Shown here: piece by piece, positions 16,534-62,404 of the stretch
How positions within the stretch are numbered: the first letter of the stretch is position 1
Layout: the number at the start of each line of letters is the position of its first letter
Assembly (NCBI GenBank): GCA_947085855.1
Contig: CAMTYB010000001.1
Location: forward strand, 85,788-149,787
Direction: 5' to 3'
Length of the DNA: 64,000 bases
Origin: an uncultured Candidatus Saccharibacteria bacterium
GTDB taxonomy: Bacteria > Patescibacteriota > Saccharimonadia > Saccharimonadales > 2-12-FULL-41-12
Translations under genes and position numbers: made by a program
Notes under the pieces: generated by a model
What the model was told of the DNA's origin: nothing
Database searches by the model: none
Seen by the model: only the letters and a program-made list of their open reading frames with translations

Positions 16534-17457
16534 TTAGCTGGATGATAAGGTTTCGAGTAATGCGGTGTGAGCTGTAGTGATGGCATCAATTCCAAGAGGT
16601 TTAATCGCGCTATATATTTTATTCAGCGGTACTTTGGAGGGGATTTTACCAGCCTTAAACGCCGGGCTAGCCTGGTACTCAAAGGTCATGAGTCGCTCTA
16701 ATGCGAACTGGGCCGCATCAACTTCGCTTATCTGCTCTCCGCTTAAGAACTTTGAATAGACGTCCAGTTCAATAGTTGATGCAGCAAATCGGTCATCTTT
16801 AGTAATGACGCTACCATTACCTTCTAATTGTGCTTTATGGGCCAGAGCGTCATAAAGTGGTGCATGCTGGCCTCCATAAAACATGGCAATACGTGTCGGC
16901 GTGGTGGTGTCGGCTATTTTCAGAGGCAGTCTTAGACCGATCTGTTCGAGAATTTTTTGCTCTCTCTGCTGCTGAATGTCAAATCGTAATGGTAGCGCTT
17001 GTTGCGTGACCATTACAACACGGTCATGGTCACGCTGTAGTGCGGCGTCGATCACATAGTGTGCCAAAGCGTTAGATTTACTCAAGAGTGGGTCAGTGTG
17101 TTCAATGTCAACAACCGCTACTTTGCTATTTGAACCTCTGAGTGCGTGATAAAATTCACGTTTCCATAGGGGGTTTTGGGATTGGGTTGCTACTCTACCA
17201 ATGAGATGAACTACGGTTGAATCATTTTCAACCAATTGCTCAAGCATCTGCTCTTCCGTTTCCCTGATGCTTCCGAGTGCTTCAGGTATAACAACGTCGG
17301 CCTTCTTGAGGATGCGCCCCAAACCAGGAGGCAGATCGGCTGCAAATTGATGTGGGCCGAGGTAGATTGTTAGATCTATGTTCTCGGGGAGTGAGAAAGC
17401 ATCGTAATTATAAGGTGCAATATTTTCTAAATTATTACTATGGTTGACTGCAGACAT
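16534..17457 (-). CDS. Hypothetical protein
   Basis: 307 aa ORF with no motif recognised. A TTGACA/TATATT-type promoter is plausible immediately upstream. Confidence 0.6.
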   Translation of the reverse strand: MSAVNHSNNLENIAPYNYDAFSLPENIDLTIYLGPHQFAADLPPGLGRILKKADVVIPEALGSIRETEEQMLEQLVENDSTVVHLIGRVATQSQNPLWKREFYHALRGSNSKVAVVDIEHTDPLLSKSNALAHYVIDAALQRDHDRVVMVTQQALPLRFDIQQQREQKILEQIGLRLPLKIADTTTPTRIAMFYGGQHAPLYDALAHKAQLEGNGSVITKDDRFAASTIELDVYSKFLSGEQISEVDAAQFALERLMTFEYQASPAFKAGKIPSKVPLNKIYSAIKPLGIDAITTAHTALLETLSSS

Positions 17458-49051: not shown

Positions 49052-49684
49052 AGCTTTTTCGTAGAGAATGACCAACTTAGTCCAGACAAACATCACGTAG
49101 AACATAATCGTCACTAACACCAAGCCTGCGAATAAGTATGGCAACGTGCTCAGCGTGAAGTCAGCGTCAACAAATTTACCCATCAACGAAACACACGCCG
49201 GTAATATCAGCCAAAAGGCTACTACTACATATATAAGGTAGGCAAAGGCCATAGACAGCCGTTTTACAGCTTTTAGAAAAATAGACTCGCGTTTAGCTGC
49301 ATCTTGATATTCATTCTGTAAAATTGCTTCATTATGTAAAAAAATAAAAACATTATTAGCATATATATAAGATCGGTAAACTACCACGGCTACCACGGCC
49401 CAGAATAATAGCGTGACCACTTCGGAAGCATAGGGTAGTTGGCTGAGTGTATTGAGCCACTCACTAATTTGCTGGCTCGTCGAACCATATATCGTCTCGG
49501 ATTCATTCAGCGAAGATACGCCAAGCGCATTGATAACCTGACGAGGATATTGACCGACAAACACAACCACGGCAGCAATAAGCGCATATACTGCCATCGG
49601 TAGCGACGTAGCTACAAACGAAGTTAATTTAGAAGTTATTGTCATCTGTTTTTTTGACTTTTTTACAAAAAGCTTGGATTTCAC
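49046..49684 (-). CDS. Integral membrane protein of unknown function
   Basis: 212 aa with about 5 TM helices. The alternative start is ATG 49645. Confidence 0.6.
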   Translation of the reverse strand: MKSKLFVKKSKKQMTITSKLTSFVATSLPMAVYALIAAVVVFVGQYPRQVINALGVSSLNESETIYGSTSQQISEWLNTLSQLPYASEVVTLLFWAVVAVVVYRSYIYANNVFIFLHNEAILQNEYQDAAKRESIFLKAVKRLSMAFAYLIYVVVAFWLILPACVSLMGKFVDADFTLSTLPYLFAGLVLVTIMFYVMFVWTKLVILYEKAL

Positions 49685-49760
49685 TTATGTTTATAATAGA
49701 CTAAAGACAAAATGTAAAGTTAACAATAAAAACTACAAACCAATAAACAAGAAAAAATAT

Positions 49761-51761
49761 ATGAAACTCTTTCTCAGTACACCAAAAAGTACCAAAAACA
49801 AAAAAGTTACTAAAAAATCGACCAAAAGCCGGTCCAAACGAGGCAACAGCAAAAACAGTCTGCGCCAAGTATTAATCGGCAAAGGTCCAAACGTCTTACC
49901 ATATCGCCGCTTTTCTAATCGAAAAGCGGTTTTTGTTGTAATCGGCATGGCTATTGTAGGTATCGCGACCGTGATCTACACCTTGGCAGCGACCACAACC
50001 GTTAATACCACCGTGGAAGCCGAAAATATGACCTGGAACCGGGGCGTTACACAACGCTGGAGCCCTAACAATATCGTCGGCAAAGCACTATACTGGAACG
50101 CCACAGGCACAAGTACGGTGCAACTACCTGTTAACGCCACGAGCTTCTCGGTGTACGTCAAAGGCGATCAGTGTGACGGTGCACCCGTCCTCAAAGCAAC
50201 AATGGGTAATTATGAAATACTCAATAAAGCAGTGACGAGCAAGAACTGGACCAAGTACTCTGTTGCAATTGATCCAAAAATTGCCGTAGCAGGCAAGCAC
50301 AACATTAACCTCAGCTTTGCGAACGATTACGTAAGATACGGAACCTGTGACCGTAATCTATATATAGACAAAATAATCTTCACCGGTGTCAAAGAGATTC
50401 CCGTCGTAAATCCAAAGCCAAGTGAACCAAAACCGTCGACCACACCGGCGCCAAAATATAATCCGAGCGCTCAATACAACATCATTATGATTGGCTGGCG
50501 CCCATATGAGAAGGACTACGCTCAGCTCGCCAACAATAACACTAATCTTGTGTACCGCTCGATTCACAGGACAGCATCTGGCAACAAAGCTAAGTTTGAG
50601 CTGTGGGATAAGATGGGCTACAAGTACTTCAATAATGTCGCCGGATCCGACTGGGCCTCCAGCGGTAAAGGTGGAGCCTGTAAAAATATCCCGCTCGCAT
50701 ACATGGACAAACCTTACAGCGAAGAGCTCATTAAGCGCTCTAACAGTGTCGGCTACTACATGCATGAGATGGCCTCCTTGAATGCGGCTTGTAATGGCTG
50801 GAATTGGGCAAATGCTGCCGAAGGACTCGACTGGGCCAAAATCAATACCTATATGATCCAAGCGCGTGCCCAAAACAAGAAAGTGGTCTGGTCCGAACCA
50901 GCCCAAGGCTGGTCGGCCCTCAACAATAGCCCGTCCTTTAAATATTACGGTCCACAGTGGAAAGATGTCCTCGTTCCAATGTTTGCTACCAACTTCCGTA
51001 CTCCGTCCTTTGACCACGTCCCAGCTGCCCGTTCTGCTGCCGTAACAGCCTCTACAAAGCTTGGAACGCCCGTGGGGGCCAGTGTTCAGTCTTGGTACTT
51101 CCGCGAGGGCTACAACGACCTTACAACTGCTGCTACAGTCAAATTGGCCAACATGGGCCTCGAAGTCGGCGCCAAATACTATCAGATTGAAGGCACCTAC
51201 ACCGATATGGCGTGGGGGACAGACTACATGAACGGCATCTTGGCCTTTAGCAAACAGCTCGGCGCCCAAGCCGTCACTAAACCACAACCGGCACCAGCCA
51301 CCCAAGCTCCGCCTACCGCTATTGCTAAGAAACCGCTTTACCAACTTTGGAATAACGTTGTCAGCGACCATATGTACACATCCGACGCAAGCGAGAAAGC
51401 CCGAATTTTGGCGGCCAAACAGTACGTCGATCAAGGTATCGCCGGCTATCTATACGACAAACAAGCAACTGGCAGCACACCCTTGTATCGAATGTGGGTA
51501 GCCAAGACCACGAATCATTTCTATACGGCCAGCAAACCCGAGCGTGACAACGCTATTAAGTCCGGCGCCACCGACCAAGGTATTGTCGGCTACATCATGA
51601 CCAGCCAAGTCGCTGGCACCTCACCACTCTACAGACTCTACAGCGCGAGCTACCCAGACCACTATTACACCGCCGACAATAATGCCAAGCAAAGCGCCCT
51701 GCAAAGCTTCCGCAAGTACAAAGACGAGGGCAACGTCGGCTACATCTTTAGCAAGCCGTAG
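49761..51761 (+). CDS. Membrane-anchored surface protein with a CBM-like module, a central domain and three C-terminal ~45 aa repeats
   Basis: Lys-rich N-tail followed by the TM AVFVVIGMAIVGIATVIYTLA. VEAENMTW...DRNLYIDKIIF resembles CBM6/35-type modules. Pro-rich linkers are present. The C-terminal repeats follow the pattern PLY(Q/R)(L/M)...(D/N)H(M/F/Y)YT...GxxGY(L/I). Confidence 0.7.
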   Translation: MKLFLSTPKSTKNKKVTKKSTKSRSKRGNSKNSLRQVLIGKGPNVLPYRRFSNRKAVFVVIGMAIVGIATVIYTLAATTTVNTTVEAENMTWNRGVTQRWSPNNIVGKALYWNATGTSTVQLPVNATSFSVYVKGDQCDGAPVLKATMGNYEILNKAVTSKNWTKYSVAIDPKIAVAGKHNINLSFANDYVRYGTCDRNLYIDKIIFTGVKEIPVVNPKPSEPKPSTTPAPKYNPSAQYNIIMIGWRPYEKDYAQLANNNTNLVYRSIHRTASGNKAKFELWDKMGYKYFNNVAGSDWASSGKGGACKNIPLAYMDKPYSEELIKRSNSVGYYMHEMASLNAACNGWNWANAAEGLDWAKINTYMIQARAQNKKVVWSEPAQGWSALNNSPSFKYYGPQWKDVLVPMFATNFRTPSFDHVPAARSAAVTASTKLGTPVGASVQSWYFREGYNDLTTAATVKLANMGLEVGAKYYQIEGTYTDMAWGTDYMNGILAFSKQLGAQAVTKPQPAPATQAPPTAIAKKPLYQLWNNVVSDHMYTSDASEKARILAAKQYVDQGIAGYLYDKQATGSTPLYRMWVAKTTNHFYTASKPERDNAIKSGATDQGIVGYIMTSQVAGTSPLYRLYSASYPDHYYTADNNAKQSALQSFRKYKDEGNVGYIFSKP

Positions 51762-52519: not shown

Positions 52520-52594
52520 TCCGGGGTAGCTCAGCGGTAGAGCGGGTGGCTGTTAACCACTAGGTCGAAGGTTCGAATCCTTTCCCCGGAGCCA
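52520..52594 (+). tRNA. tRNA-Asn (anticodon GUU), CCA encoded
   Basis: Manual cloverleaf: acceptor TCCGGGG/CCCCGGA, D arm GCTCAGCGGTAGAGC, anticodon stem GGTGG/CCACT with loop CTGTTAA, T arm GAAGGTTCGAATCCTTT, discriminator G, then CCA. Confidence 0.9.
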
Positions 52595-52601
52595 ATGTAC
52601 T

Positions 52602-52632
52602 CACTTCGCAACAGCGGAGTGTTTTGTTTTTT
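52602..52632 (+). terminator. Rho-independent terminator after tRNA-Asn
   Basis: CACTTCGC-AACA-GCGGAGTG followed by TTTTGTTTTTT. Confidence 0.75.
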
Positions 52633-52867
52633 GCTAGGTTTATATACGAGCACTAAACTCTTGAAGCCTTCTATTGACAGGGTCGAGATTAGTCGAGCTG
52701 ACATACATAAACTACATACAACACACGGCATTCCAGCAGGCATGGTTCGTGAAGCCTGTATTAGAAATGGTGTTTTATTCCCAGAAAGAGAGTATCTCAG
52801 CGCCCAACGAGATCACGCGCAGCGGTCCTAATTCATATCATGTTAATGCAACTGATATAGTAATTGT

Positions 52868-53701
52868 ATGAAAAGCGTGCATTTCTTAAATGGCCAGCTT
52901 GTCACAGAGGACCATTTATTGATATCACCCCGTGACTTGGGATACTCGCGCGGTTATGCCGCCTTTGAGTTTATGATTACCTCAGATGGTCAACCGTTTA
53001 TGATGGACAGGCACATAGACAGGCTCTTTGATTCTTGTCAGACTATCTCGCTGAATGTGCCTTGGTCAAAACAACAGGTCGCCAACTGGGTACAACAAAT
53101 CATTGAGGCAAATGAGCTGCGCAACGAAGATATGGTTATGCGCATTATTATTTCTGGCGGATCATCCGGAACACTTACGCCGGCGAAGACACCTACCATT
53201 GTTATCATCGTCGAAGCCCGAATGACATGTCCTCCGGAAGATTATACGAATGGAGTCCGTATTTTACTCACTGAATTCGATCGATACGAACCCCAGGCTA
53301 AGACAACGAACTATGTGCAGGCAATTCGTGTAATGAATACTGCCCCGCGTGATGTTGATGAAATTATTTACTTCTCCAACAATATGGTGCAAGAAGGCAC
53401 GCGGTGCAATATATTCGCGGTGATAAACGGTATACTAACCACACCTAAAACAAGGATGTTAGAAGGCATCACACGCGGCATCATACTAAAGGATTTAGAA
53501 TTAACCACTCAGACCGAATCTCGAGACTTTACTGTTCAGGAACTACTCAGCGCACCCGAGGTATTTATTACCGCCACAGGCAAAGAAGTCATGCCAGTCA
53601 CTAAAATAAATGACGCGCTCGTAGGGGACGGCGCAGTAGGCGACATTACTAAAGAAGTTATGTCCAAATTCAAGAATTTCTTTGATTCGTACAACCGCTG
53701 A
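52868..53701 (+). CDS. Class IV (fold type IV) PLP-dependent aminotransferase (BCAT/D-amino-acid aminotransferase/ADC lyase family)
   Basis: GYSRGYAAFEFM, the Lys-containing PQAKTTNY, EGTRCNIFAV and MLEGITRG are the characteristic family blocks. Confidence 0.8.
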   Translation: MKSVHFLNGQLVTEDHLLISPRDLGYSRGYAAFEFMITSDGQPFMMDRHIDRLFDSCQTISLNVPWSKQQVANWVQQIIEANELRNEDMVMRIIISGGSSGTLTPAKTPTIVIIVEARMTCPPEDYTNGVRILLTEFDRYEPQAKTTNYVQAIRVMNTAPRDVDEIIYFSNNMVQEGTRCNIFAVINGILTTPKTRMLEGITRGIILKDLELTTQTESRDFTVQELLSAPEVFITATGKEVMPVTKINDALVGDGAVGDITKEVMSKFKNFFDSYNR

Positions 53702-54517
53702 CTAGCTCCACAAAGACAACGTGCCACCTTGCTGCGACATGAAGGTGGTTAAGCCCAATCGTGGTCTGTCTGATTTGATCTCATCGACCTGATGAAAATT
53801 GCGAGTTTTGAATACCACTAAATCACCTTCTGATGGTAGTACCGAAGCATAGGGTGTGTCACCCAAAAAGCCTTCGGTAAATCCGAACGTACCCTTTTCT
53901 ACATAATCACGGTTGTAACGTTCGTCTTCTGGAGTCCAGGGGCGATCATATATGTTTAACTCTCCGCCTGCTGCTGGCATTTGAAGGTACAATACGAGGC
54001 CAAATTGCTCATCTGCATTAGCGACACTCCAGCCAGGAAGTTGTTTTGGAGCATAATCAAAGTGCAACGTACTTTTTGCACCCATAGCCCGAATAAGGCC
54101 TGCAAAGTATCGGGCTTCTGCTAGCTCGGACTCTGTTGCTATTTTTGTATCAAACCCATGCCCAAATAACTCAAGTATTTTACTGATAGGACTCTGGGTG
54201 CCTTCAAATATTTCATCTCGATCTTCCTCGGCTGCCGGCGTTGCGTCAAAGTACTTTTTCTTGCCGTCAGGTTCGTGGCTAAATCCAGTAGCGTTAATGC
54301 CGATTCTTCCTTGTTCGTTTGTTTTGTTGGCATACCAGGCTATTGCTTTGTCTTCCATATTAGCTTTGATTACGGCTAATTCTTGCTCACCCAAAAAGTG
54401 TCCGATTTTAATAGCGGCAATTTCATTCCTTGCTAGCTCGGGTAACAGCGCGCACGCTTCTGCCGAGTTATCTGGACCTAACTGTAATACATCCCATTGA
54501 TTTTCTTTGCTCGCCAT
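53702..54517 (-). CDS. Putative Fe(II)/2-oxoglutarate-dependent oxygenase-like protein
   Basis: The candidate facial triad is H-x-D in TLHFDYA plus a distal His in TRNFHQV. An RLGLTTF stretch follows (R-x-S/T-like 2OG anchor). This is pattern-level evidence only. Confidence 0.5.
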   Translation of the reverse strand: MASKENQWDVLQLGPDNSAEACALLPELARNEIAAIKIGHFLGEQELAVIKANMEDKAIAWYANKTNEQGRIGINATGFSHEPDGKKKYFDATPAAEEDRDEIFEGTQSPISKILELFGHGFDTKIATESELAEARYFAGLIRAMGAKSTLHFDYAPKQLPGWSVANADEQFGLVLYLQMPAAGGELNIYDRPWTPEDERYNRDYVEKGTFGFTEGFLGDTPYASVLPSEGDLVVFKTRNFHQVDEIKSDRPRLGLTTFMSQQGGTLSLWS

Positions 54518-54639
54518 ATACGCTCCAATATAGTTTGATACATAGCCTGAATGATTTTATTGTAACATAATTGCGAATTGTCAAATGACACATTTTCGTA
54601 ATAGCATACGAAATGTGTATTATGATATAAGATAACTCC

Positions 54640-56091
54640 ATGAAAACTGTTAATGTACTCCTCGTTGGCGTTGGCCCCCATGCTAGGCGTATTTATGTTC
54701 CTGCGTTATTTAAGTTTGCATCAGATCTTCCGGTCCGCTTAGTTGCAGCCGTGGACTTAAAACGCCAAAAAGACACCATTGACACATACCTCCAAAAGCA
54801 AGGATATGAACTAGAGATGCTGTATCTTGATTCTTTTGATGCGACAGCCGTCATTCCCGATCACGCCAGAGCGATACTTGACGCGCTAGTCAAGAAGTTT
54901 GATATCCAAGGAGTGGTCATCTCCACGGAACCTACCGTTCATAAGGCATACGCTGAATGGGCCCTCGGCAATGGGCTGAACATTCTGATGGATAAACCTA
55001 TTTCGGCTAGAAAAGCGATTAGTGTTGACCATGCGCAAGCTAGTGGGTTGATCGATGACTATAACGAGCTTTTAGACCTCTACAAAGCACATCAATCTGA
55101 CAAATCAATTCTTTTTTCTATAAACGTCCAAAGACGATACGACCATGGCTTTGACAAGGTTAAAGAATTAATTGCTGAAACCACACAAAAATTTAATGTA
55201 CCAATTACCTCAATGCAAGTTATGCATGCCGATGGTTCATGGAGATTCCCAAAAGAGATACTGACACAAGAATCTCATGGTCTTTCTGATGGTTTTGGGA
55301 AAGTGTCACATAGTGGCTACCATTTGTTCGATATGGCGTGGCAGTTATATAAATCTAGCCTTGTGCCCGAAAAGCAACCGGATGGCATGGAGATTTTTTC
55401 TTCTGCTTTCAATCCCACAGGACTTGATGTTTGCATCAATGAAAACGATTACATTAGGTATTTTGGAGATGACTTTGAGCGAACGGGCCTTTCTTCCCAG
55501 CAATATCTAGAAACGGTTGCCGACTATGGTGAGATGGATTCGTTTAATGTCATCCGACTAATGAAGCAGGGAATTAATATTTGTAATATTTCTGTGAATT
55601 TACTTCACAGCAGTTTTTCAAGACGTTCTTGGGCTACACCAAATACCGATTTTTATAAGGGTAACGGACGAGTAAAACATCAGCAATTTATAATTCAACA
55701 AGGCCCGTTTCAGTGTGTTCAGATTCATAATTACCAATCCAAGCATGAACATGACATAGATAATTCTAAGGAGTTTGGCGTGGGTGGCAATAACCACTTT
55801 GATATTTACGTATTTCGTAATGTTGGCATGTATGGCTACGGCGAGGCCTTCACTAAAATATCTTCTCTAGACCTAGAACAACAAGCTGACGCGCCTGGGC
55901 TTACCATCGAAAATGCCAAATACCGTATTATCCGTGAGTTTATCGAGTTTATGCTCGGAAACATTCCATTACAAGATGCGAGATCCAACATCGACACCCA
56001 TGCAGTACCGGTAAAGATACTGAGTGGCGTATGTCAGTCTAACGCCAATATGCATACCGATCGTAATCCGCTCATTCGTATATCACTATGA
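54640..56091 (+). CDS. Gfo/Idh/MocA-like NAD(P)-dependent oxidoreductase with an extended C-terminal domain
   Basis: N-terminal Rossmann pattern VNVLLVGVGPHARRIYVPAL. TEPTVHKAYAEWALGNGLNILMDKP matches the family EKP block. Confidence 0.65.
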   Translation: MKTVNVLLVGVGPHARRIYVPALFKFASDLPVRLVAAVDLKRQKDTIDTYLQKQGYELEMLYLDSFDATAVIPDHARAILDALVKKFDIQGVVISTEPTVHKAYAEWALGNGLNILMDKPISARKAISVDHAQASGLIDDYNELLDLYKAHQSDKSILFSINVQRRYDHGFDKVKELIAETTQKFNVPITSMQVMHADGSWRFPKEILTQESHGLSDGFGKVSHSGYHLFDMAWQLYKSSLVPEKQPDGMEIFSSAFNPTGLDVCINENDYIRYFGDDFERTGLSSQQYLETVADYGEMDSFNVIRLMKQGINICNISVNLLHSSFSRRSWATPNTDFYKGNGRVKHQQFIIQQGPFQCVQIHNYQSKHEHDIDNSKEFGVGGNNHFDIYVFRNVGMYGYGEAFTKISSLDLEQQADAPGLTIENAKYRIIREFIEFMLGNIPLQDARSNIDTHAVPVKILSGVCQSNANMHTDRNPLIRISL

Positions 56092-56738
56092 GCGGAACAA
56101 TATACTTGATGGGCGGCGGAGAACTTAGAGACGGTGATACCCAGCTAATTGACGAGGACATACTGTCTTGGGCACCAAAAGGTTCTACATTTGTTTTCTT
56201 TGGGTTCGCTTCACAAGATAGTACCGACTATGCCGACACCGTCAGGTCTGTATATGGAAACAGATACACCGTAGTAGTGCCTACAGAAGCAAAAGGGAGA
56301 GATTTTGCGATTGACGCTATAAAGTCGGCTGCTATTATCTACTTTGGCGGCGGTAATACTGAGGAATTGTTGCGACTATTTGCCGACTGGGGCCTTCTAG
56401 AGTATTTACGGGTTGCCGTTGGTCGAGGGGTGCATATTGCGGGAATGAGCGCAGGCGCACAGGCGTTATCTACGTGGTATGTGCATGAGGGTAACGATAT
56501 TTTTGAACTTCGTAAAGGTTGGGATATTGTCCCCGTTGGTGTCCTAGTACATGCTGATCGGACTTCGTTCGGTATGGCCAAGATACTATGGTCTGAACAT
56601 GGTATGACCGGCAAATATCCCTTTGTTGCAATTGGAGAAAGTGCCGCATGGCGCATGGGTACCTTAGAGGATACAAAGGTAGGTTTGGGTAATATTTGGA
56701 CAATAGCTGTCAGTGCTAAAGGGCCTAATCGAAGCTAA
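56088..56738 (+). CDS. Peptidase S51/type-1 glutamine-amidotransferase-like protein (dipeptidase E/cyanophycinase family)
   Basis: IYLMGGGE, IYFGGGNTEELL and the nucleophile block IAGMSAGAQ. The start overlaps the upstream stop (ATGA). Confidence 0.7.
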   Translation: MSGTIYLMGGGELRDGDTQLIDEDILSWAPKGSTFVFFGFASQDSTDYADTVRSVYGNRYTVVVPTEAKGRDFAIDAIKSAAIIYFGGGNTEELLRLFADWGLLEYLRVAVGRGVHIAGMSAGAQALSTWYVHEGNDIFELRKGWDIVPVGVLVHADRTSFGMAKILWSEHGMTGKYPFVAIGESAAWRMGTLEDTKVGLGNIWTIAVSAKGPNRS

Positions 56739-56813
56739 GCGCACAACAGCTTAGTATAGTTACCTATTCGTGATATTATAGAATAACTTCATCATATTTA
56801 CTAGTTTAGGTTT

Positions 56814-57485
56814 ATGAAGATTGAATTTGTAATGAGTGAAGATATAAATAACATATTTCGAAATGTTAAAGCTGAAACGCAGTGCCCATTTGCTAAGTCA
56901 GCTACTATCACATTTGCACGTTCGATTGAAGCTGAATTTACTGTACCCGAAACCGCACAGCAACTTTATGAAGATATCGCCACGTATGTCCAAGAAGGTA
57001 TTGCCACAGCACCAGATGGCATAGCAGTAGCTCTGCCCAATAATGTTATTGGAGATGATTTTATATCCTTAACTTCAGGCTTTAAATCTCTTTACCACGC
57101 TCTAAAAATAGAAGATGGATCTAACGAAGAAGCTATAGCTACCGAGAACATTGATGATTCGGACTGGCAGCTAACGATAGTCGGACAACGTTTATTTACG
57201 ATTGTTTTTAGCTCATTATATCCCGCGGACAATCCTCGTCATATCCATGAAGCCAACACTACATTTGTATTTTTTCAACCTGTACAAAGTTTTAACACAC
57301 GAATACCATTCGATAAGGACAGCGCAGAATTCAAGAGACTGAAAGCGAACATTCGAGCTCGTTTTACTAAAGCGGGACTGGCGTACGATGGAGCCATCAA
57401 TGACGACCCACGTGAAGCCGCAAAATATCTGTCACCACCCCATTTGGGCATGCAAGCAGTACAGTGGTGGAAAGGCGATAGTTAA
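56814..57485 (+). CDS. YqcI/YcgG-family protein
   Basis: N-terminal CPFAK motif. The C-terminal block LFTIVFSSLYPADNPRHIHEANTTFVFFQPVQSF resembles the family's conserved core. Recognition is by memory of the family pattern only. Confidence 0.6.
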   Translation: MKIEFVMSEDINNIFRNVKAETQCPFAKSATITFARSIEAEFTVPETAQQLYEDIATYVQEGIATAPDGIAVALPNNVIGDDFISLTSGFKSLYHALKIEDGSNEEAIATENIDDSDWQLTIVGQRLFTIVFSSLYPADNPRHIHEANTTFVFFQPVQSFNTRIPFDKDSAEFKRLKANIRARFTKAGLAYDGAINDDPREAAKYLSPPHLGMQAVQWWKGDS

Positions 57486-57488
57486 TAC

Positions 57489-58589
57489 ATGCAATCTATA
57501 GAATCTTCGTTTCTTGAATATCATCATGATAATGGTTTCGTGACACATGAATCTTTTCCGCTCGTCATTGATGATCCCACGGTTTTGTTTACCAATGCCA
57601 CCATTACTCCGTTCAAGCCGATGTTTGCAGGTGAGACGGAATTTTCTAATTTTGCCCTCGTTCAAAAATGCCTTCGCCTAGGTGGTACTGGCGGCAATGT
57701 TAACACGGCTCGTTTGAATACAAATTACACCTCACTGTTCAATATGCTTGGCAGCGGTTTCTTTAATGTGCATCACGATAAAGCGGTAGACTATTTTGTT
57801 GATATGCTAGGTGCTGTTGGACTGGAGCGGCGCAATTTACTCTTCTCGTCAATTGGTGGTCATGCCTTGGACGCATCGTTAAAATCTTCGTCGCTCGATC
57901 CGTCTCAGATTCGTAGTATGGATCCCGAAACATTGCAGCACGAGTGGAGCTTTGGGGAGGGCGACCTACACGGAATCGGGATAATAGCATGGTTTAATGC
58001 AGATGGTTACGATCAGACTACAGCGCTATCTGACTGCTTGCAGATCGGCAGGATCGTGCATATTGATGGCGTTTCAGAAAATGGATCGGTAAACCGGTTT
58101 GAACATACTGCCTTTGACGTGGGCTTGGGCTTGGGCAGGGTTGAACAAGCTCTGACTGGCGAAAGTGAATACGCCATGATGCCATTGAGAAAACTCTCGG
58201 AGCAATTTAAACGCTCCTTTGAAAACATCTCTGACGAGGACGCTCATTACATGGCAAATCTTTGTCGCATAACTGACGAGCTGACTGCGGAAGGCGTAAT
58301 GCCAGGCAATAAAAAGCATGCTTATGTACTTAGGAAAGTTATTCGCTCGCTTATTGAGGAAGCTTGGTTGCAGTCCGGAAGTTTTGTGGACGTCGAAGAC
58401 GTATTAGGCCATTTCATTGAAGAGGCTCAGTTTAAACCTAGTGTGAAGGCAGCGCTATCAAGCGAACAAGATGCTTTGCGTCGCATACTCTCTCAAGTAG
58501 AAGATAGGCGTAAAAAGCACCCTGATATGACGCTCAGCGACTTACATTCAACCTTTGGCATTAAGCCCAGTCTGCTTAGTCTACTGTAA
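57489..58589 (+). CDS. Truncated, divergent alanyl-tRNA synthetase paralogue (catalytic core only; no editing or C-Ala domains)
   Basis: It aligns by eye to the AlaRS N terminus. FLEYHHDNGFVTHESFPLVIDDPTVLFTNATITPFKPMFAGE corresponds to F..FF..KGH....SSL.P..DPTLLFTNAGMNQFK. QKCLRLGG corresponds to QRCVRAGG, FNMLGSGFF to FEMLGNFSFG and DVGLGLGRVEQAL to DTGMGLERI. ELTAEGVMPGNKKHAYVLRKVIR corresponds to [22 protein letters not shown]. It is 366 aa versus about 870 aa for a full AlaRS. Confidence 0.8.
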   Translation: MQSIESSFLEYHHDNGFVTHESFPLVIDDPTVLFTNATITPFKPMFAGETEFSNFALVQKCLRLGGTGGNVNTARLNTNYTSLFNMLGSGFFNVHHDKAVDYFVDMLGAVGLERRNLLFSSIGGHALDASLKSSSLDPSQIRSMDPETLQHEWSFGEGDLHGIGIIAWFNADGYDQTTALSDCLQIGRIVHIDGVSENGSVNRFEHTAFDVGLGLGRVEQALTGESEYAMMPLRKLSEQFKRSFENISDEDAHYMANLCRITDELTAEGVMPGNKKHAYVLRKVIRSLIEEAWLQSGSFVDVEDVLGHFIEEAQFKPSVKAALSSEQDALRRILSQVEDRRKKHPDMTLSDLHSTFGIKPSLLSLL

Positions 58590-59202
58590 GCTCCGTCGCA
58601 ATGCGGCCCACAACTCGTGCGAGTTCATTGGCGTACGGCTGCTCGCCAATAAAGTGTGCTGCGCCAGCTACTTCAATCAGTTCCGCGTTAGCGATAACGC
58701 TTGCAAGTTGACCACAACGAGCAACTAGGTACGGATGCAGTTCGCACTCTTTTTCACCAAATAATATAGTTGTAGGTATCCTTAGATCATTAACCAACGA
58801 AGAAGCATCCAGCGCAGAAAAAAACTTTAGCTCCTGCACTCGTTTTTGACCAATACGCTGGGCAAGTGCAGGGTCTAAATTTGTATTAATGTCCTCTGAG
58901 AACAGAGCCGAAGGAGAGCACAGCACCAAATGTCGCAAAGGAATTTGATCTACAATACTCAGAGCCGCCAAGGCACCCAAGGAATGCCCGATTAGGATTC
59001 CATTGTATTCACAGTGCTGCAATTGCTCAAGTGCACGCTGGCCAAAATCCTGCACACTCTGTTCTCCCCAGCCGCTGGTAACGCCACTGAGCAGCGCCCC
59101 TTGTGCTGCCATTGCATGTTTTAACTCATCCAAATCAGGATCGGTAAATGTCTTATCAGGGCTGTAACCAGGTACCAAAAAAGCTGCTACCATATCTGCC
59201 AT
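58576..59202 (-). CDS. Small serine hydrolase (alpha/beta fold, YdeN/RBBP9-like size)
   Basis: GHSLGALAALS nucleophile elbow and a C-terminal GAAHF block containing His. Its 3' end overlaps the AlaRS-like gene by 14 nt (convergent). Confidence 0.7.
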   Translation of the reverse strand: MADMVAAFLVPGYSPDKTFTDPDLDELKHAMAAQGALLSGVTSGWGEQSVQDFGQRALEQLQHCEYNGILIGHSLGALAALSIVDQIPLRHLVLCSPSALFSEDINTNLDPALAQRIGQKRVQELKFFSALDASSLVNDLRIPTTILFGEKECELHPYLVARCGQLASVIANAELIEVAGAAHFIGEQPYANELARVVGRIATELTVD

Positions 59203-59845: not shown

Positions 59846-60343
59846 ATGACAAAATTCACGCAAAAATATACCATTGTCCAATTCCTCGAAGAGATTGCAG
59901 ATGGTTACGAGTATTCCTCGAGCAACTGGCCGCTACACACTACTATTGCTGACACTTTTGCAGTTGATTGGGACAAGGATAATTCGCTTGCTAAGCTAGA
60001 AGCATGGCTGACTAAGCAAAGGGCGGTCACCACAAAAGCTGCAAACTTTGAGTTCTTTGGGCCCGAGAAGCAAACAAAAGTAACATTGCTTGAAATTAAT
60101 AAAGAACTTTTGCAACTTCATAATAGTGTCGTGGATCTACTCAAGAATGATGGGGCAGTTTTTAATGACCCCCAATTTACGGGAACAGGCTTTTTGCCAC
60201 ACGTAACAGTGCAGTCTCACGCACATTTAAAAAAAGGTGATTTAGTTACTTTTACGGGCTTGTCCTTGATAGATATGTTTCCAAATAGCGATCCCTACCA
60301 GCGCAAGGTGCTCAAAACCATGATGCTTCTTAATAGTTATTGA
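59846..60343 (+). CDS. 2H phosphoesterase superfamily protein (LigT/cyclic phosphodiesterase-like)
   Basis: Two H-x-T/S-x motifs at the expected spacing: PLHTTIA and PHVTVQS. Confidence 0.65.
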   Translation: MTKFTQKYTIVQFLEEIADGYEYSSSNWPLHTTIADTFAVDWDKDNSLAKLEAWLTKQRAVTTKAANFEFFGPEKQTKVTLLEINKELLQLHNSVVDLLKNDGAVFNDPQFTGTGFLPHVTVQSHAHLKKGDLVTFTGLSLIDMFPNSDPYQRKVLKTMMLLNSY

Positions 60344-60465
60344 TGCATAAGAAACCAAGAACTCAAGATACTCGAGGCATTTGCTGGCAATCTCTCAAAG
60401 TTCGTCAACTAAGGTGAGCGAAGCTGCCTGAGCAGCTTGCGGTCTTTATTTGGTATAGTAAACAC

Positions 60466-60897
60466 GTGCACATAAATCCCAAGCTAGAAGACGTGGACGA
60501 CTCGTTGTATCGTGTTGCGGTACGCGCGTTAGTTTTACACGATGACAAAATACTAGCCGTCAAAGAAGTTGACAGCCAGCAATGGTCAATACCTGGCGGC
60601 GGAGTCGATTACGGAGAAGACTTAAAAGCCGGTCTATTGCGGGAAATTGAAGAAGAACTTGGCATCTCCGCTGAATCTGTTTCGTCAGATTTTCAAATTA
60701 TTCACTATGATATCGGAAACATTGTTAATGGCGTTCCACGTATGAACATATTCTTTACAGTTTCCGTGCCAGAGGATCGCATCAAGACAACGTCTCACGT
60801 CGAAGAGTGGGGCTGGTTTACCAGAGATGAGTTCATGGAACTAGACACAAACCCTTCTCACGATAAAGCCGAACTTATTGAAGTTATCTTCAGCTAA
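60466..60897 (+). CDS. NUDIX hydrolase
   Basis: Nudix box GGGVDYGEDLKAGLLREIEEELGI. GTG start 6 nt after GGTATAGT. Confidence 0.85.
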   Translation: MHINPKLEDVDDSLYRVAVRALVLHDDKILAVKEVDSQQWSIPGGGVDYGEDLKAGLLREIEEELGISAESVSSDFQIIHYDIGNIVNGVPRMNIFFTVSVPEDRIKTTSHVEEWGWFTRDEFMELDTNPSHDKAELIEVIFS

Positions 60898-62092: not shown

Positions 62093-62404
62093 TTACTTCG
62101 ACTTAGCTTGTCTACCAAGCACCCATTTAACAGATGGACTGATAGATTTATCGGTGCGATGAATGCAACCAATCCAGCAGCAGGGGCGGCGTTTACCTTC
62201 TTTTAGTTCTTTAACAGTTCTTTTGATGTGATCTGTTCGTGTCTTTGGCTGCTTAACAGTAATGTTCCAGCAAATCCACTCATTACGCGCCAGTGGAGTC
62301 AGGCCTTCCCATTTTTCTAGAGATGCCTTGTTGGCTACCAAGGCTTTTTTCAAGTCAGCAGGCATCTCATGTACAGTGCCGCCAGTTACTTGTGCGTTCG
62401 TCAT
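62093..62404 (-). CDS. YdeI/OmpD-associated family protein
   Basis: PADLKKALVANKASLEKWEGLTPLARNEWICWNITVKQPKTRTDHIKRTVKELKEGKRRPCCW is the typical family pattern. Confidence 0.7.
   Translation of the reverse strand: MTNAQVTGGTVHEMPADLKKALVANKASLEKWEGLTPLARNEWICWNITVKQPKTRTDHIKRTVKELKEGKRRPCCWIGCIHRTDKSISPSVKWVLGRQAKSK

What the first reader, a model, noticed from the sequence alone, without database searches (positions are those of the whole stretch)
54640..58589. Candidate uncharacterised small-molecule pathway: oxidoreductase, S51-type hydrolase, YqcI/YcgG protein and an AlaRS-like enzyme in one tight operon
Four co-directional genes are packed with a 4-nt overlap, a 75-nt gap and a 3-nt gap:
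- a Gfo/Idh/MocA-like NAD(P) oxidoreductase (483 aa, with an unusually long C-terminal domain);
- a peptidase-S51/class-I-amidotransferase-like protein with the GMSAGA nucleophile block;
- a YqcI/YcgG-family protein;
- a 366 aa alanyl-tRNA-synthetase catalytic-core paralogue.

Three further genes lie inside the same island:
- a fold-type-IV aminotransferase (52868-53701);
- a putative Fe/2OG oxygenase (53702-54517);
- a small serine hydrolase (58576-59202).

Truncated aaRS paralogues are established amino-acid-activating or ligating enzymes in several natural-product pathways. To my recollection, members of the YqcI/YcgG family have been reported as heme-dependent N-oxygenating enzymes.

Together the set contains an amino-acid activator, a transaminase, two or three redox tailoring enzymes and a dipeptidase-like protein. 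That fits synthesis or processing of a modified amino acid or aminoacyl/dipeptide metabolite. I do not recognise this gene combination as a described cluster.
Basis: partly seen in the sequence, partly recalled or inferred. Interest (0 to 1): 0.85.

Follow-up and report, generated by a model that had tools for sequence, protein, structure and literature searches.

The report
Alanyl-transfer gene cluster in Patescibacteria
A tiny-genome (CPR/Saccharibacteria-type) bacterium carries a conserved, undescribed gene cluster built around a remodelled copy of alanyl-tRNA synthetase that probably hangs alanine onto a sugar- or nucleoside-like molecule, much as the ascamycin antibiotic pathway does.

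Summary
The genes are real and sit at the stated coordinates, and the set is not a chance neighbourhood. ATIV, Fe/2OG hydroxylase, GFO-type dehydrogenase, S51 hydrolase and the 366-aa AlaRS-like protein recur together in about 24 Patescibacteria loci, in four gene orders, with unrelated flanks. YqcI/YcgG and the α/β-hydrolase are accessory.

The AlaRS-like protein keeps the aminoacylation and tRNA-recognition domains and the adenosine pocket (R63, F84, V190, D210, R217). It has lost half of the residues that are near-invariant in canonical AlaRS.

Across Patescibacteria it pairs with an editing-less "mini-AlaRS" that has canonical residues. In this window that partner survives only as a 63-codon relic (52640-52828). 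The family also always sits with a serine peptidase, either S51 or S66.

This mirrors the ascamycin AcmD/AcmF/AcmE system, where the truncated AlaRS-like enzyme transfers alanine from Ala-tRNA and does not activate it. The GFO-like fold matches dehydrogenases that act on sugar-ring hydroxyls.

Best reading: keto, then amino, then N-alanyl modification of a sugar- or nucleoside-like scaffold. The product is unknown. I found no published description of this cluster.

The parts
52640..52828 (+). Relic (last 63 codons) of an editing-less ~431-439-aa 'mini-AlaRS'. The gene is intact at this position in related loci.
   Evidence: tblastn: 63-70% identity to residues 369-431 of the L006 and 377-439 of the L007 mini-AlaRS. 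The intact genes score 298-328 bits on PF01411, profile positions 1-430. The relic abuts tRNA-Asn at 52520-52594.
52868..53701 (+). Fold-type IV (class IV) PLP aminotransferase. Core gene.
   Evidence: PF01063 134 bits. Below every NCBIfam equivalog cut-off for BCAT, D-AAT and PabC. Nearest PDB entries are BCAT 5cm0 (E = 3e-36) and D-AAT 1daa (E = 7e-32). Catalytic Lys lies in 'AKTTNY'. Present in 20 loci.
53702..54517 (-). Fe(II)/2-oxoglutarate oxygenase, WelO5-like fold, hydroxylase-type H-x-D triad. Core gene, divergent from the GFO operon.
   Evidence: PF22814 65.6 bits. PDB WelO5 5iqu E = 7e-6. Invariant 'LHFDY', 'NFHQ' and 'RL' in 11 orthologues. Present in 24 loci.
54518..54639 (.). Divergent intergenic region between the 2OG gene and the GFO operon, with promoter-like hexamers on both strands.
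   Evidence: Consensus scan (+ 54535-54563, + 54578-54607, - 54646-54619). These are consensus matches only.
54640..56091 (+). Enlarged GFO/IDH/MocA-type NAD(P) dehydrogenase, predicted to act on a sugar- or cyclitol-ring hydroxyl. Core gene.
   Evidence: PF01408 28.8 bits. Invariant G10-x-G12-x-x-A15 and D118-K119-P120. AF2 model pLDDT 87, pTM 0.89. Foldseek top hits are glucuronide 3-dehydrogenase 8tdi, scyllo-inositol DH 5yab, DgpA, GFOR and NanOx (E about 1e-16, TM about 0.7 normalised to target).
56088..56738 (+). Peptidase S51 (PepE/cyanophycinase-like) serine hydrolase. Core gene, with a 4-nt overlap with the GFO gene.
   Evidence: PF03575 65.2 bits. Nearest PDB entries are PepE 7c9b and 1fy2. 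Invariant Ser in G(M/L)SAGA, His in LVHA and Glu in GE across 10 orthologues.
56814..57485 (+). Divergent YqcI/YcgG-family protein (putative thiolate-heme N-hydroxylase). Accessory gene.
   Evidence: PF08892 24.5 bits, below GA 27; all 5 orthologues hit, best E = 7e-8. Invariant C24 in 'ETxCPFA'. Present in 10 of about 24 loci, before or after the AlaRS-like gene.
57489..58589 (+). Truncated, remodelled AlaRS paralogue with aminoacylation and tRNA-recognition domains only. Inferred alanyl (aminoacyl) transferase. Core gene.
   Evidence: PF01411 84.7 bits. It forms a distinct clade (300-512 bits) separate from canonical AlaRS (181 bits or below). It retains 50% of 69 canonical invariant columns. 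AF2 model pLDDT 92; Foldseek matches AlaRS catalytic fragments at TMq 0.74 over about 400 columns.
58576..59202 (-). Small α/β-fold serine hydrolase (GHSLGA), convergent with the AlaRS-like gene and overlapping it by 14 nt. Accessory gene, possible AcmE-like deacylase.
   Evidence: Abhydrolase_6 27.8 bits. Found only in the window, L006/L022 and L007.

Best explanation
This is one member of a Patescibacteria-specific family of biosynthetic gene clusters organised around an AcmF-like AlaRS paralogue.

Inferred pathway:
1. The enlarged GFO-type dehydrogenase oxidises a ring hydroxyl of a sugar-, cyclitol- or nucleoside-like scaffold to a ketone.
2. The class IV aminotransferase converts the ketone to an amine.
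3. The HxD Fe/2OG enzyme hydroxylates the scaffold. In some genomes the YqcI-like heme enzyme N-oxygenates it.
4. The 366-aa AlaRS-like protein holds the scaffold in its retained adenosine/aminoacyl pocket. It transfers an alanyl group onto the amine from Ala-tRNA(Ala).
5. The Ala-tRNA comes from a dedicated editing-less mini-AlaRS where that gene is present. In this genome, where only a relic remains, it comes from the housekeeping AlaRS.
6. The S51 hydrolase, and the α/β-hydrolase where present, remove the aminoacyl group again, for self-protection, activation or recycling.

Shown: gene content, conservation, catalytic-residue status and folds. Inferred: the order of steps, tRNA dependence, the identity of the scaffold and the biological role.
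For: 1. Module conservation. The five core genes co-occur in about 24 loci in four different arrangements, while the flanks are unrelated. They span MAGs labelled Saccharimonadales, Levybacteria and Nomurabacteria.
2. The AlaRS-like protein forms a separate clade from canonical AlaRS. It retains only 50% of canonical invariant columns, against 82% for the mini-AlaRS. It has lost the motif 2 loop K/H/N/D, the 'GPCGPC..E' Glu, and the W of 'EIWN'.
3. It keeps the five contacts named for the ATP/Ala complex. These are R68, F89, V204, D225 and R232 in 9jc7, corresponding to R63, F84, V190, D210 and R217 here. It also keeps conserved residues of the helical tRNA-recognition domain: P272, Y279, R282, R286, E326, T355 and G357. 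The fold covers both domains.
4. AcmF is described in the same terms. It is truncated to these two domains, retains the motif 2 Arg and Phe to hold the adenosine-type acceptor, has N→Q and D→E substitutions, and uses Ala-tRNA made by AcmD. AcmE, an α/β-hydrolase, reverses the reaction (PMC12945691). In our family the same two positions are N or R, and D or E.
5. A mini-AlaRS or full AlaRS is adjacent in L006, L007, L022, L011, L014, L100 and L102. In 3 of 3 independently chosen distant mini-AlaRS loci, an AlaRS-like gene lies within 4 genes.
6. The family is always accompanied by a serine peptidase, S51 or S66 (MccF/LdcA type).
7. The GFO-like fold matches sugar-ring dehydrogenases. Dehydrogenase plus aminotransferase is the established route to amino-deoxy sugars and nucleosides (Pur10/Pur4; PMC11641026).
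8. The GFO/2OG(/ATIV/S51) module also pairs with other aaRS paralogues. L016 has a class I LysRS. L036 has a TyrRS, a truncated TyrRS-like gene and a tRNA-Tyr gene. This argues that the module builds the acceptor and not the amino acid.
Against: - There is no biochemical data.
- The window protein retains every literature-named ATP/Ala contact, so residual adenylation activity cannot be excluded.
- I could not compare it with the AcmF sequence. The resemblance rests on architecture and context, and the two families may be convergent.
- Class IV aminotransferases normally act on amino or keto acids, not keto-sugars.
- No exporter, nucleotidyltransferase or glycosyltransferase is conserved in window-type loci.
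- Nudix genes are not enriched (4 of 24 loci).
- Most window-type loci lack a mini-AlaRS.
- aaRS genes are frequent in small genomes, so some adjacencies (for example LeuRS) may be fortuitous.
Confidence: 0.45

Rival explanations
1. The AlaRS-like protein is an ATP-dependent amino-acid-activating ligase (MshC-like or aa:carrier-protein-ligase-like). It forms an aminoacyl-adenylate and passes the amino acid directly to a small-molecule amine, with no tRNA involved.
For: R63, F84, V190, D210 and R217 are retained. These are the contacts for adenine, the α-phosphate and alanine in the 9jc7 ATP/Ala complex. Most window-type loci have no dedicated AlaRS.
Against: Half of the canonical invariants are lost, including the motif 2 loop and the conserved Glu of 'GPCGPCTE' in all 24 members examined. 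Conserved residues of the tRNA-recognition domain are retained for no obvious reason if tRNA is not a ligand. The family is systematically paired with a fully canonical mini-AlaRS, which would be redundant if the paralogue activated alanine itself. AcmF retains the same subset of residues yet does not activate alanine.
Confidence: 0.25
2. A role in the cell envelope and not in a specialised metabolite. The pair of mini-AlaRS and AlaRS-like protein performs Fem/MurM-like Ala-tRNA-dependent alanylation of a peptidoglycan or glycan precursor, for example an N-alanyl amino sugar. S51 or S66 acts as a trimming or recycling carboxypeptidase.
For: S66 is the LdcA family. A Mur ligase lies beside the mini-AlaRS in L106. 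MreBCD and PBP2 are near the pair in L109. More distant GFO-like homologues sit with GT28, polysaccharide deacetylase and nucleotide-sugar-type genes. No exporter is conserved.
Against: Distribution is patchy: only about 120 clusters at 90% identity among 5.8 billion proteins. Decayed copies exist, namely the relic in this window and split genes in L108. The tailoring sets are highly variable (rSAM, methyltransferases, PLP decarboxylase, dCTP-deaminase-like, AKR), which is typical of accessory metabolism.
Confidence: 0.15
3. An aaRS-inhibitor ('Trojan horse') cluster. The product is an aminoacyl-nucleoside mimic of Ala-AMP or of the Ala-tRNA 3' end. The adjacent mini-AlaRS or full AlaRS is a resistant target copy, not a substrate supplier. 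S51 or S66 is an MccF-like immunity hydrolase.
For: An extra aaRS copy next to a cluster is the classic self-resistance signature (my own knowledge of the mupirocin, albomycin and borrelidin clusters). S66 is the MccF family. The related type-2 clusters carry nucleotide-type genes, namely dCTP-deaminase-like and HIT. The adenosine pocket is retained.
Against: The window genome has lost the extra AlaRS but keeps an intact cluster. No exporter is conserved. There is no evidence of bioactivity. The mini-AlaRS shows canonical residues and no obvious resistance substitutions.
Confidence: 0.2
4. No dedicated pathway exists. The AlaRS-like protein is a subunit or split piece of the housekeeping AlaRS, or the gene adjacency is a fortuitous product of a compact genome.
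For: CPR genomes are gene-dense and aaRS genes are common. Split AlaRS exists in Nanoarchaeum (my own knowledge).
Against: The five genes move together through four rearrangements with unrelated flanks. The family is rare rather than universal. Longer AlaRS genes with editing domains coexist beside the cluster in L011 and L102. The protein lacks half of the AlaRS invariants.
Confidence: 0.03

Closest known systems
AcmD / AcmF / AcmE of ascamycin biosynthesis (Streptomyces sp. 80H647; PMC12945691, citing Zheng et al. 2024 ACS Catal)
   Same: - A truncated AlaRS paralogue with only the aminoacylation and tRNA-recognition domains.
- It retains the motif 2 Arg and Phe and varies at the canonical Asn and Asp positions.
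- It is partnered with a canonical-type AlaRS encoded in the cluster.
- A hydrolase is present that can reverse the aminoacylation.
   Different: - Found in Patescibacteria, not an actinomycete.
- Direct sequence relatedness to AcmF was not tested.
- The partner AlaRS is an editing-less ~430-aa mini enzyme, reduced here to a relic.
- The hydrolase is S51 or S66, with an α/β-hydrolase only sometimes.
- The tailoring genes (GFO, class IV aminotransferase, HxD 2OG, YqcI) have no counterpart in the acm cluster, so the acceptor is not a nucleoside sulfamate.
Pur10/Pur4(/Pur7/Pur3) aminonucleoside core pathway of puromycin, A201A, cystocin and ADG (PMC11641026)
   Same: An NAD-dependent dehydrogenase acts on a ring hydroxyl. 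An aminotransferase then acts, and the new amine is acylated with an amino acid.
   Different: - The aminotransferase here is fold-type IV.
- The acylating enzyme is an aaRS paralogue, not Pur6.
- Nudix and phosphatase genes are not conserved (4 of 24 loci).
- The GFO-like protein is about 100 aa longer and only fold-level similar to characterised family members.
MccF (S66) immunity peptidase of microcin C-type aminoacyl-nucleotide antibiotics; LdcA
   Same: In sister clusters (L013, L014, L100, L102, L104) the AlaRS-like gene is always next to an S66 peptidase. In window-type clusters an S51 Ser-His-Glu hydrolase occupies that place.
   Different: S51 is a different family. No MccB-like adenylating enzyme or precursor peptide is present. 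The immunity role is inferred only.
YqcI/YcgG heme N-hydroxylases (AglA, DcsA, GntA; PMC12866846)
   Same: A Pfam PF08892 relationship, and an invariant N-terminal Cys that could serve as the thiolate heme ligand.
   Different: The window protein scores below the Pfam gathering threshold. No redox partner gene is present. The producer probably cannot make heme. The gene is accessory to the cluster.
WelO5-family Fe/2OG enzymes
   Same: Best Pfam and PDB match, and a carrier-protein-independent architecture.
   Different: The H-F-D facial triad makes it a hydroxylase, where halogenases have H-x-G/A.

Membership tests
Canonical alanyl-tRNA synthetase (AlaRS) | Full set of near-invariant catalytic-core residues (69 columns at least 93% conserved in 108 canonical enzymes) | tested here: not met
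   the AlaRS-like family retains 50% on average, against 82% for the mini-AlaRS. G/M of 'NAGM', the motif 2 loop K/H/N/D, the Glu of 'GPCGPCTE', and the W of 'EIWN' are lost.
Canonical alanyl-tRNA synthetase (AlaRS) | Editing (tRNA_SAD) and C-terminal domains | tested here: not met
   The protein is 366 aa and the Pfam match covers only profile positions 2-309 of 552, with no PF07973 hit. The profile search separates the clade (300-512 bits) from ~870-aa AlaRS (181 bits or below).
AcmF-type aa-tRNA-dependent AlaRS-like transferase | Architecture consists of the aminoacylation domain plus the tRNA-recognition domain only | tested here: met
   AF2 model pLDDT 92. Foldseek TMq is 0.74 over about 400 columns against the 441-465-aa AlaRS catalytic fragments 3hxu, 1riq and 9jc7.
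AcmF-type aa-tRNA-dependent AlaRS-like transferase | Degenerate activation site with the adenosine-binding Arg and Phe retained, and substitutions at the canonical Asn and Asp (N219Q, D232E in AcmF) | tested here: inconclusive
   R63, F84 and R217 are invariant. The canonical Asn position is N in 54% and R in 42% of members (R188 in the window). The canonical Asp position is D in 62% and E in 38% (D210 in the window). The pattern is similar but not identical, and the window protein keeps Asp.
AcmF-type aa-tRNA-dependent AlaRS-like transferase | Cluster-encoded canonical-type AlaRS partner (AcmD-like) | tested here: met
   An intact mini-AlaRS is adjacent in L006, L007, L022, L014 and L100. A full AlaRS is adjacent in L011 and L102. 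In 3 of 3 distant mini-AlaRS loci an AlaRS-like gene lies within 4 genes. In the window only a 63-codon relic remains.
AcmF-type aa-tRNA-dependent AlaRS-like transferase | Sequence homology to AcmF closer than to canonical AlaRS | not tested
No named AcmF-like protein appeared.
AcmF-type aa-tRNA-dependent AlaRS-like transferase | Aminoacyl transfer that depends on Ala-tRNA(Ala) and not on ATP plus Ala | not testable with these tools
   This needs an enzyme assay.
GFO/IDH/MocA oxidoreductase | N-terminal Rossmann GxGxxG/A motif, E/D-K-P motif, and the two-domain fold | tested here: met
   G10, G12, A15 and D118-K119-P120 are invariant in 33 sequences. PF01408 scores 28.8 bits, above GA 24. Foldseek E is about 1e-16 to many family members.
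Peptidase S51 (PepE/cyanophycinase) | Pfam score above threshold and a Ser-His-Glu catalytic triad | tested here: met
   65.2 bits against GA 23.9. The Ser in 'SAGA', the His in 'LVHA' and the Glu in 'GE' are invariant in 10 orthologues. Assignment of His and Glu is by position and analogy to PepE and was not checked structurally.
YqcI/YcgG heme N-hydroxylase | Pfam PF08892 gathering score | tested here: not met
   The window protein scores 24.5 bits, below 27. All 5 orthologues hit with E of 2.7e-5 or better, best 7e-8, so it is a divergent relative.
YqcI/YcgG heme N-hydroxylase | N-terminal Cys thiolate heme ligand (Cys44 in AglA) and basic residues that bind the heme propionates | tested here: inconclusive
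   C24 in 'ETxCPFA' is invariant and several C-terminal Arg/Lys residues are conserved. The Pfam alignment starts at residue 42, and there is no PDB sequence match, so equivalence to Cys44 is not shown.
WelO5-type halogenase | H-x-G/A in place of the H-x-D/E facial triad | tested here: not met
   H-F-D is invariant in 11 orthologues, which indicates hydroxylase-type chemistry.
Class IV aminotransferase (D-AAT or BCAT equivalogs) | Family fold with catalytic Lys; equivalog-level score for a named specificity | tested here: inconclusive
   Family membership is met: PF01063 scores 134 bits and the Lys lies in 'AKTTNY'. No NCBIfam equivalog cut-off is reached: 160 against 363, 138 against 277 and 130 against 246. 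The substrate is unassigned.
Puromycin-type aminonucleoside pathway | Pur10 + Pur4 + Pur7 (Nudix) + Pur3 gene set | tested here: not met
   Only the dehydrogenase-plus-aminotransferase logic is shared. Nudix occurs in 4 of 24 window-type loci and makes up 1.5% of all ORFs. The resemblance is one of mechanism, not membership.

The most novel reading that the evidence does not exclude
Patescibacteria, usually seen as biosynthetically minimal episymbionts, carry a phylum-wide modular family of aa-tRNA-dependent pathways. A dedicated editing-less aaRS and a degenerate aaRS paralogue (Ala here; Lys or Tyr versions elsewhere) aminoacylate amino-sugar or nucleoside scaffolds. The products are puromycin- or ascamycin-like molecules that interfere with translation or aaRSs in hosts or competitors. 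S51 or S66 hydrolases provide immunity.
Probability: 0.25. Interest if true: 0.88.

Novelty: new variant of a known kind. Interest (0 to 1): 0.7.

Why it matters
Only one AlaRS-like aminoacyl transferase, AcmF, has been characterised, and that was in 2024 in a Streptomyces. This work points to a much larger and older reservoir of such enzymes in uncultured CPR bacteria. There they are paired with a previously unremarked editing-less mini-AlaRS and combined with several different tailoring sets.

If the model holds, it would do four things:
- Give CPR bacteria a defined specialised-metabolite capacity, possibly relevant to how they exploit or fight their hosts.
- Supply new aa-tRNA-dependent amide-forming biocatalysts.
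- Assign a function to a family that NCBI currently labels 'alanine--tRNA ligase-related protein' or 'hypothetical'.
- Offer a directly testable system, since all the genes are small, soluble and few.

Tried and rejected
1. **Carrier-protein domain inside the GFO-like protein.** There was a weak DltC hit at residues 293-335 (E = 0.003 in NCBIfam; 0.89 in PDB). The 'GExDSF' motif is conserved, but the AF2 model places it in β-strands of the GFO C-terminal domain, not in a four-helix bundle.
2. **Halogenase.** Rejected because of the invariant HxD triad.
3. **NUDIX (60466-60897) and 2H phosphoesterase (59846-60343) as Pur7/Pur3-like cluster members.** Neither is conserved in related loci, and Nudix is not enriched.
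4. **Anti-phage defence system.** PADLOC returned nothing except a generic 2OG domain.
5. **Canonical alaS in the window.** None was found by tblastn.
6. **Dedicated tRNA-Ala gene near the clusters.** None was found. The tRNA-Asn is only conserved chromosomal context in this lineage.
7. **PDB sequence relatives of the YqcI-like protein, including by profile.** None was found.
8. **My own recollection that YqcI/YcgG equals piperazate synthase KtzT.** The literature search did not support it.
9. **Relics of the mini-AlaRS in other loci that lack it.** None was found.

Full report
**Observation.** The ORFs exist exactly as described. GFO-like is 54640-56091 and S51 is 56088-56738, with a 4-nt overlap. 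YqcI-like is 56814-57485, after a 75-nt gap. AlaRS-like is 57489-58589, after a 3-nt gap. ATIV is 52868-53701. The 2OG gene (53702-54517) and the small hydrolase (58576-59202) lie on the opposite strand.

Pfam and NCBIfam support the family assignments. The only one below threshold is YqcI_YcgG, at 24.5 bits against a gathering score of 27. All five orthologues hit that family, with a best E-value of 7e-8. The exact proteins occur on two Logan contigs and on an 817-kb NCBI contig. Homologues are named Saccharimonadales, Levybacteria, Nomurabacteria and 'Patescibacteria group', so the window comes from a CPR bacterium.

**Is it a real module?** I fetched 12 genome loci through the AlaRS-like protein and 80 metagenome loci through the GFO-like protein. 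Mapping and clustering their ORFs gives these results:
- ATIV, 2OG, GFO, S51 and AlaRS-like co-occur in about 24 loci.
- They appear in four different gene orders. Most loci share the window's order; L010, L011, L024 and L034 differ.
- The flanking genes are unrelated outside the closest Saccharimonadales relatives.
- YqcI is present in 10 loci, on either side of the AlaRS-like gene. The α/β-hydrolase is in only three distinct loci. Both are accessory.
- The NUDIX and 2H genes downstream are not conserved.

Identities of 64-74% between the window and a MAG labelled Levybacteria suggest horizontal spread, if the MAG labels are right.

**Individual enzymes.**
- *2OG oxygenase.* It has an invariant H-F-D plus a distal His in 'NFHQ'. 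That makes it a hydroxylase despite its WelO5 best hit.
- *S51.* Ser, His and Glu are invariant at PepE-like positions.
- *ATIV.* It has the catalytic Lys but reaches no equivalog cut-off, and it sits between BCAT and D-AAT.
- *GFO-like.* The model is confident (pLDDT 87). All of its best structural neighbours oxidise a sugar- or cyclitol-ring hydroxyl: glucuronide 3-dehydrogenase, scyllo-inositol dehydrogenase, DgpA, GFOR and NanOx.
- *More distant GFO-like homologues (41-48% identity).* These sit with TauD, SHMT-like, TPP, GT28, polysaccharide deacetylase, nucleoside-deoxyribosyltransferase-like and dTMP-kinase-like genes. That also points to sugar or nucleoside chemistry.

**The AlaRS-like protein.** A whole-library profile search shows a small separate clade. 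About 17 representatives at 50% identity score 300-512 bits. Three intermediates score 200-220 bits. Canonical ~870-aa AlaRS scores 181 bits or below.

I took the 69 alignment columns that are at least 93% conserved in 108 canonical AlaRS cores. The AlaRS-like clade retains 50% of them. Lost positions include G/M of 'NAGM', the motif 2 loop K/H/N/D, the Glu of 'GPCGPCTE' (lost in all 24 members) and the W of 'EIWN'.

It keeps the five contacts named for the ATP/Ala complex of AlaRS (PMC12143591, mapped through the 9jdn alignment). R63 corresponds to the α-phosphate contact. F84 and R217 form the adenine sandwich. V190 contacts the Ala methyl. D210 holds the α-amino group. It also keeps conserved residues of the helical tRNA-recognition domain.

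The AF2 model (pLDDT 92) superimposes on AlaRS catalytic fragments across both domains, with TMq 0.74.

**A missed partner.** A second AlaRS-family gene of about 430-440 aa lies next to the cluster in L006, L022 and L007, and next to the AlaRS-like gene in L014 and L100. It has no editing domain and scores 298-328 bits on PF01411. It retains 82% of the canonical invariants, including all catalytic motifs.

In the window, only its last 63 codons survive (52640-52828, 63-70% identity), directly after tRNA-Asn. This mini-AlaRS family is broad in Patescibacteria. In three of three distant members that I sampled, an AlaRS-like gene lies within four genes, each time with different tailoring genes:

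| Locus | Genes near the pair |
|---|---|
| L106 | aldo-keto reductase |
| L108 | decayed S51 and a split AlaRS-like gene |
| L109 | S51, two radical-SAM genes, HIT, methyltransferase |

L011 and L102 instead have longer AlaRS genes with editing domains beside the cluster.

A second cluster type pairs divergent AlaRS-like genes with an S66 (MccF/LdcA) peptidase and two methyltransferases. It also carries a PLP decarboxylase, dCTP-deaminase-like genes or truncated class IIb aaRS genes.

**Comparison with known systems.** The ascamycin pathway has the same triad (PMC12945691):
- AcmD is a canonical-type AlaRS that makes Ala-tRNA.
- AcmF is a truncated AlaRS-like enzyme with only the aminoacylation and tRNA-recognition domains. 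It does not activate alanine. It transfers alanine from the tRNA to an amine held in the former adenylate pocket by the retained Arg and Phe. It carries N→Q and D→E substitutions.
- AcmE is an α/β-hydrolase that removes the alanine.

In our family the two equivalent positions are N or R, and D or E.

Dehydrogenase plus aminotransferase is the known way to put an amine on a nucleoside or sugar ring (Pur10/Pur4; PMC11641026).

The GFO/2OG(/ATIV/S51) module also associates with other aaRS paralogues. L016 has a class I LysRS, a class II aaRS-like gene and an MprF-type aa-tRNA transferase domain. L036 has a TyrRS, a truncated TyrRS-like core and a tRNA-Tyr gene. This fits a model in which the module builds an acceptor scaffold and the aaRS paralogue decides which amino acid is added.

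**Mechanism proposed.** The steps are ring-OH to ketone (GFO-like), then amine (ATIV), then N-alanyl (AlaRS-like, donor Ala-tRNA). The 2OG enzyme hydroxylates, and YqcI is an optional N-oxygenase. S51 and the α/β-hydrolase deacylate.

Shown: gene content, conservation, residue status, folds and the pairing with mini-AlaRS. Inferred: tRNA dependence, the scaffold, the order of steps and the biological role.

Class IV aminotransferases also rarely act on sugars. No exporter is conserved.

**Novelty.** Literature searches found no description of this cluster or of CPR AlaRS-like pathways. NCBI labels the proteins 'alanine--tRNA ligase-related' or 'hypothetical'. I rate it a new variant of a known kind (aaRS-paralogue-dependent aminoacylation as in AcmD/AcmF), in an unexpected lineage and with an undescribed enzyme set.

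Noticed in passing
window 52520-52828: tRNA-Asn (52520-52594) is followed at once by a terminator-like hairpin (52602-52621). After that comes the 3' relic of a deleted mini-AlaRS gene (52640-52828). In L006 and L007, two or three genes plus the intact mini-AlaRS lie between the tRNA-Asn and ATIV, so this genome has suffered a deletion.
   Followed up: yes
L013 3462-9732; L014 6992-12453; L100 181-7546; L102 1033-12098; L104 5839-10837: A second conserved cluster type is built around divergent AlaRS-like genes. It has an S66 (MccF/LdcA-type) peptidase and two SAM methyltransferases. It also carries a PLP Orn/DAP decarboxylase, two dCTP-deaminase-like genes, Amidohydro_2, DUF455, ATP-grasp or truncated class IIb aaRS (tRNA-synt_2, 338-369 aa).
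   Followed up: partly
L036 12251-15100; L106 4680-7559: The LeuRS of these Saccharibacteria-type genomes carries a NUDIX domain inserted after the editing domain (949-959 aa; PF00293 at residues 411-515 in L036).
   Followed up: no
L036 8157-18355: The 2OG/ATIV/GFO/S51 module sits next to LeuRS-NUDIX, TyrRS, a CYTH protein, a tRNA-Tyr gene (17004-17089) and a truncated 313-aa TyrRS/TrpRS-like core. This may be a tyrosine version of the system.
   Followed up: partly
L016 1188-14227: A GFO-like protein (54% identity) and a WelO5-like 2OG sit with several other genes. These are a class I LysRS (5 nt upstream), an 824-aa class II aaRS-like protein and a stand-alone LPG_synthase_C (MprF-type aa-tRNA transferase) domain. 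Also present are a pyruvoyl Arg decarboxylase, a NUDIX gene and an ABC exporter.
   Followed up: no
L015, L018/L019 and about 45 metagenome loci (for example L075, L084-L089): More distant GFO-like homologues (41-48% identity) lie in a different recurrent cluster. It contains TauD dioxygenase, an SHMT-like PLP enzyme, a TPP enzyme and a 2-hydroxyacid dehydrogenase. It also has GT28, polysaccharide deacetylase, nucleoside 2-deoxyribosyltransferase-like, dTMP-kinase-like and radical-SAM/SPASM genes. The TauD plus SHMT pair recalls LipL/LipK of the glycyl-uridine nucleoside antibiotics (my own recollection).
   Followed up: partly
L108 9001-12872 (CP064996.1): In this complete 943-kb genome the mini-AlaRS is intact, but the neighbouring S51 is a 153-aa fragment and the AlaRS-like gene is split into 279-aa and 172-aa ORFs. 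The cluster appears to be decaying.
   Followed up: no
window 49674-51761: A 695-aa protein has a Lys-rich N-terminus and a predicted membrane anchor. Its C-terminus carries three tandem repeats of about 45 aa with the motif 'PLY(R/Q)(L/M)(W/Y)...(D/N)H(F/M/Y)YT...E' (read from the translation).
   Followed up: no
window 59846-60897 and 62093-62404: A 2H phosphoesterase (2'-5' RNA ligase superfamily), a NUDIX hydrolase and an OmdA-domain protein lie downstream of the cluster. They are not conserved with it in other loci.
   Followed up: yes
window 54640-56091, residues 293-335: The invariant 'YGExDSF' motif gives a weak spurious match to DltC carrier proteins. In the model it forms part of the β-sheet of the GFO C-terminal domain.
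   Followed up: yes
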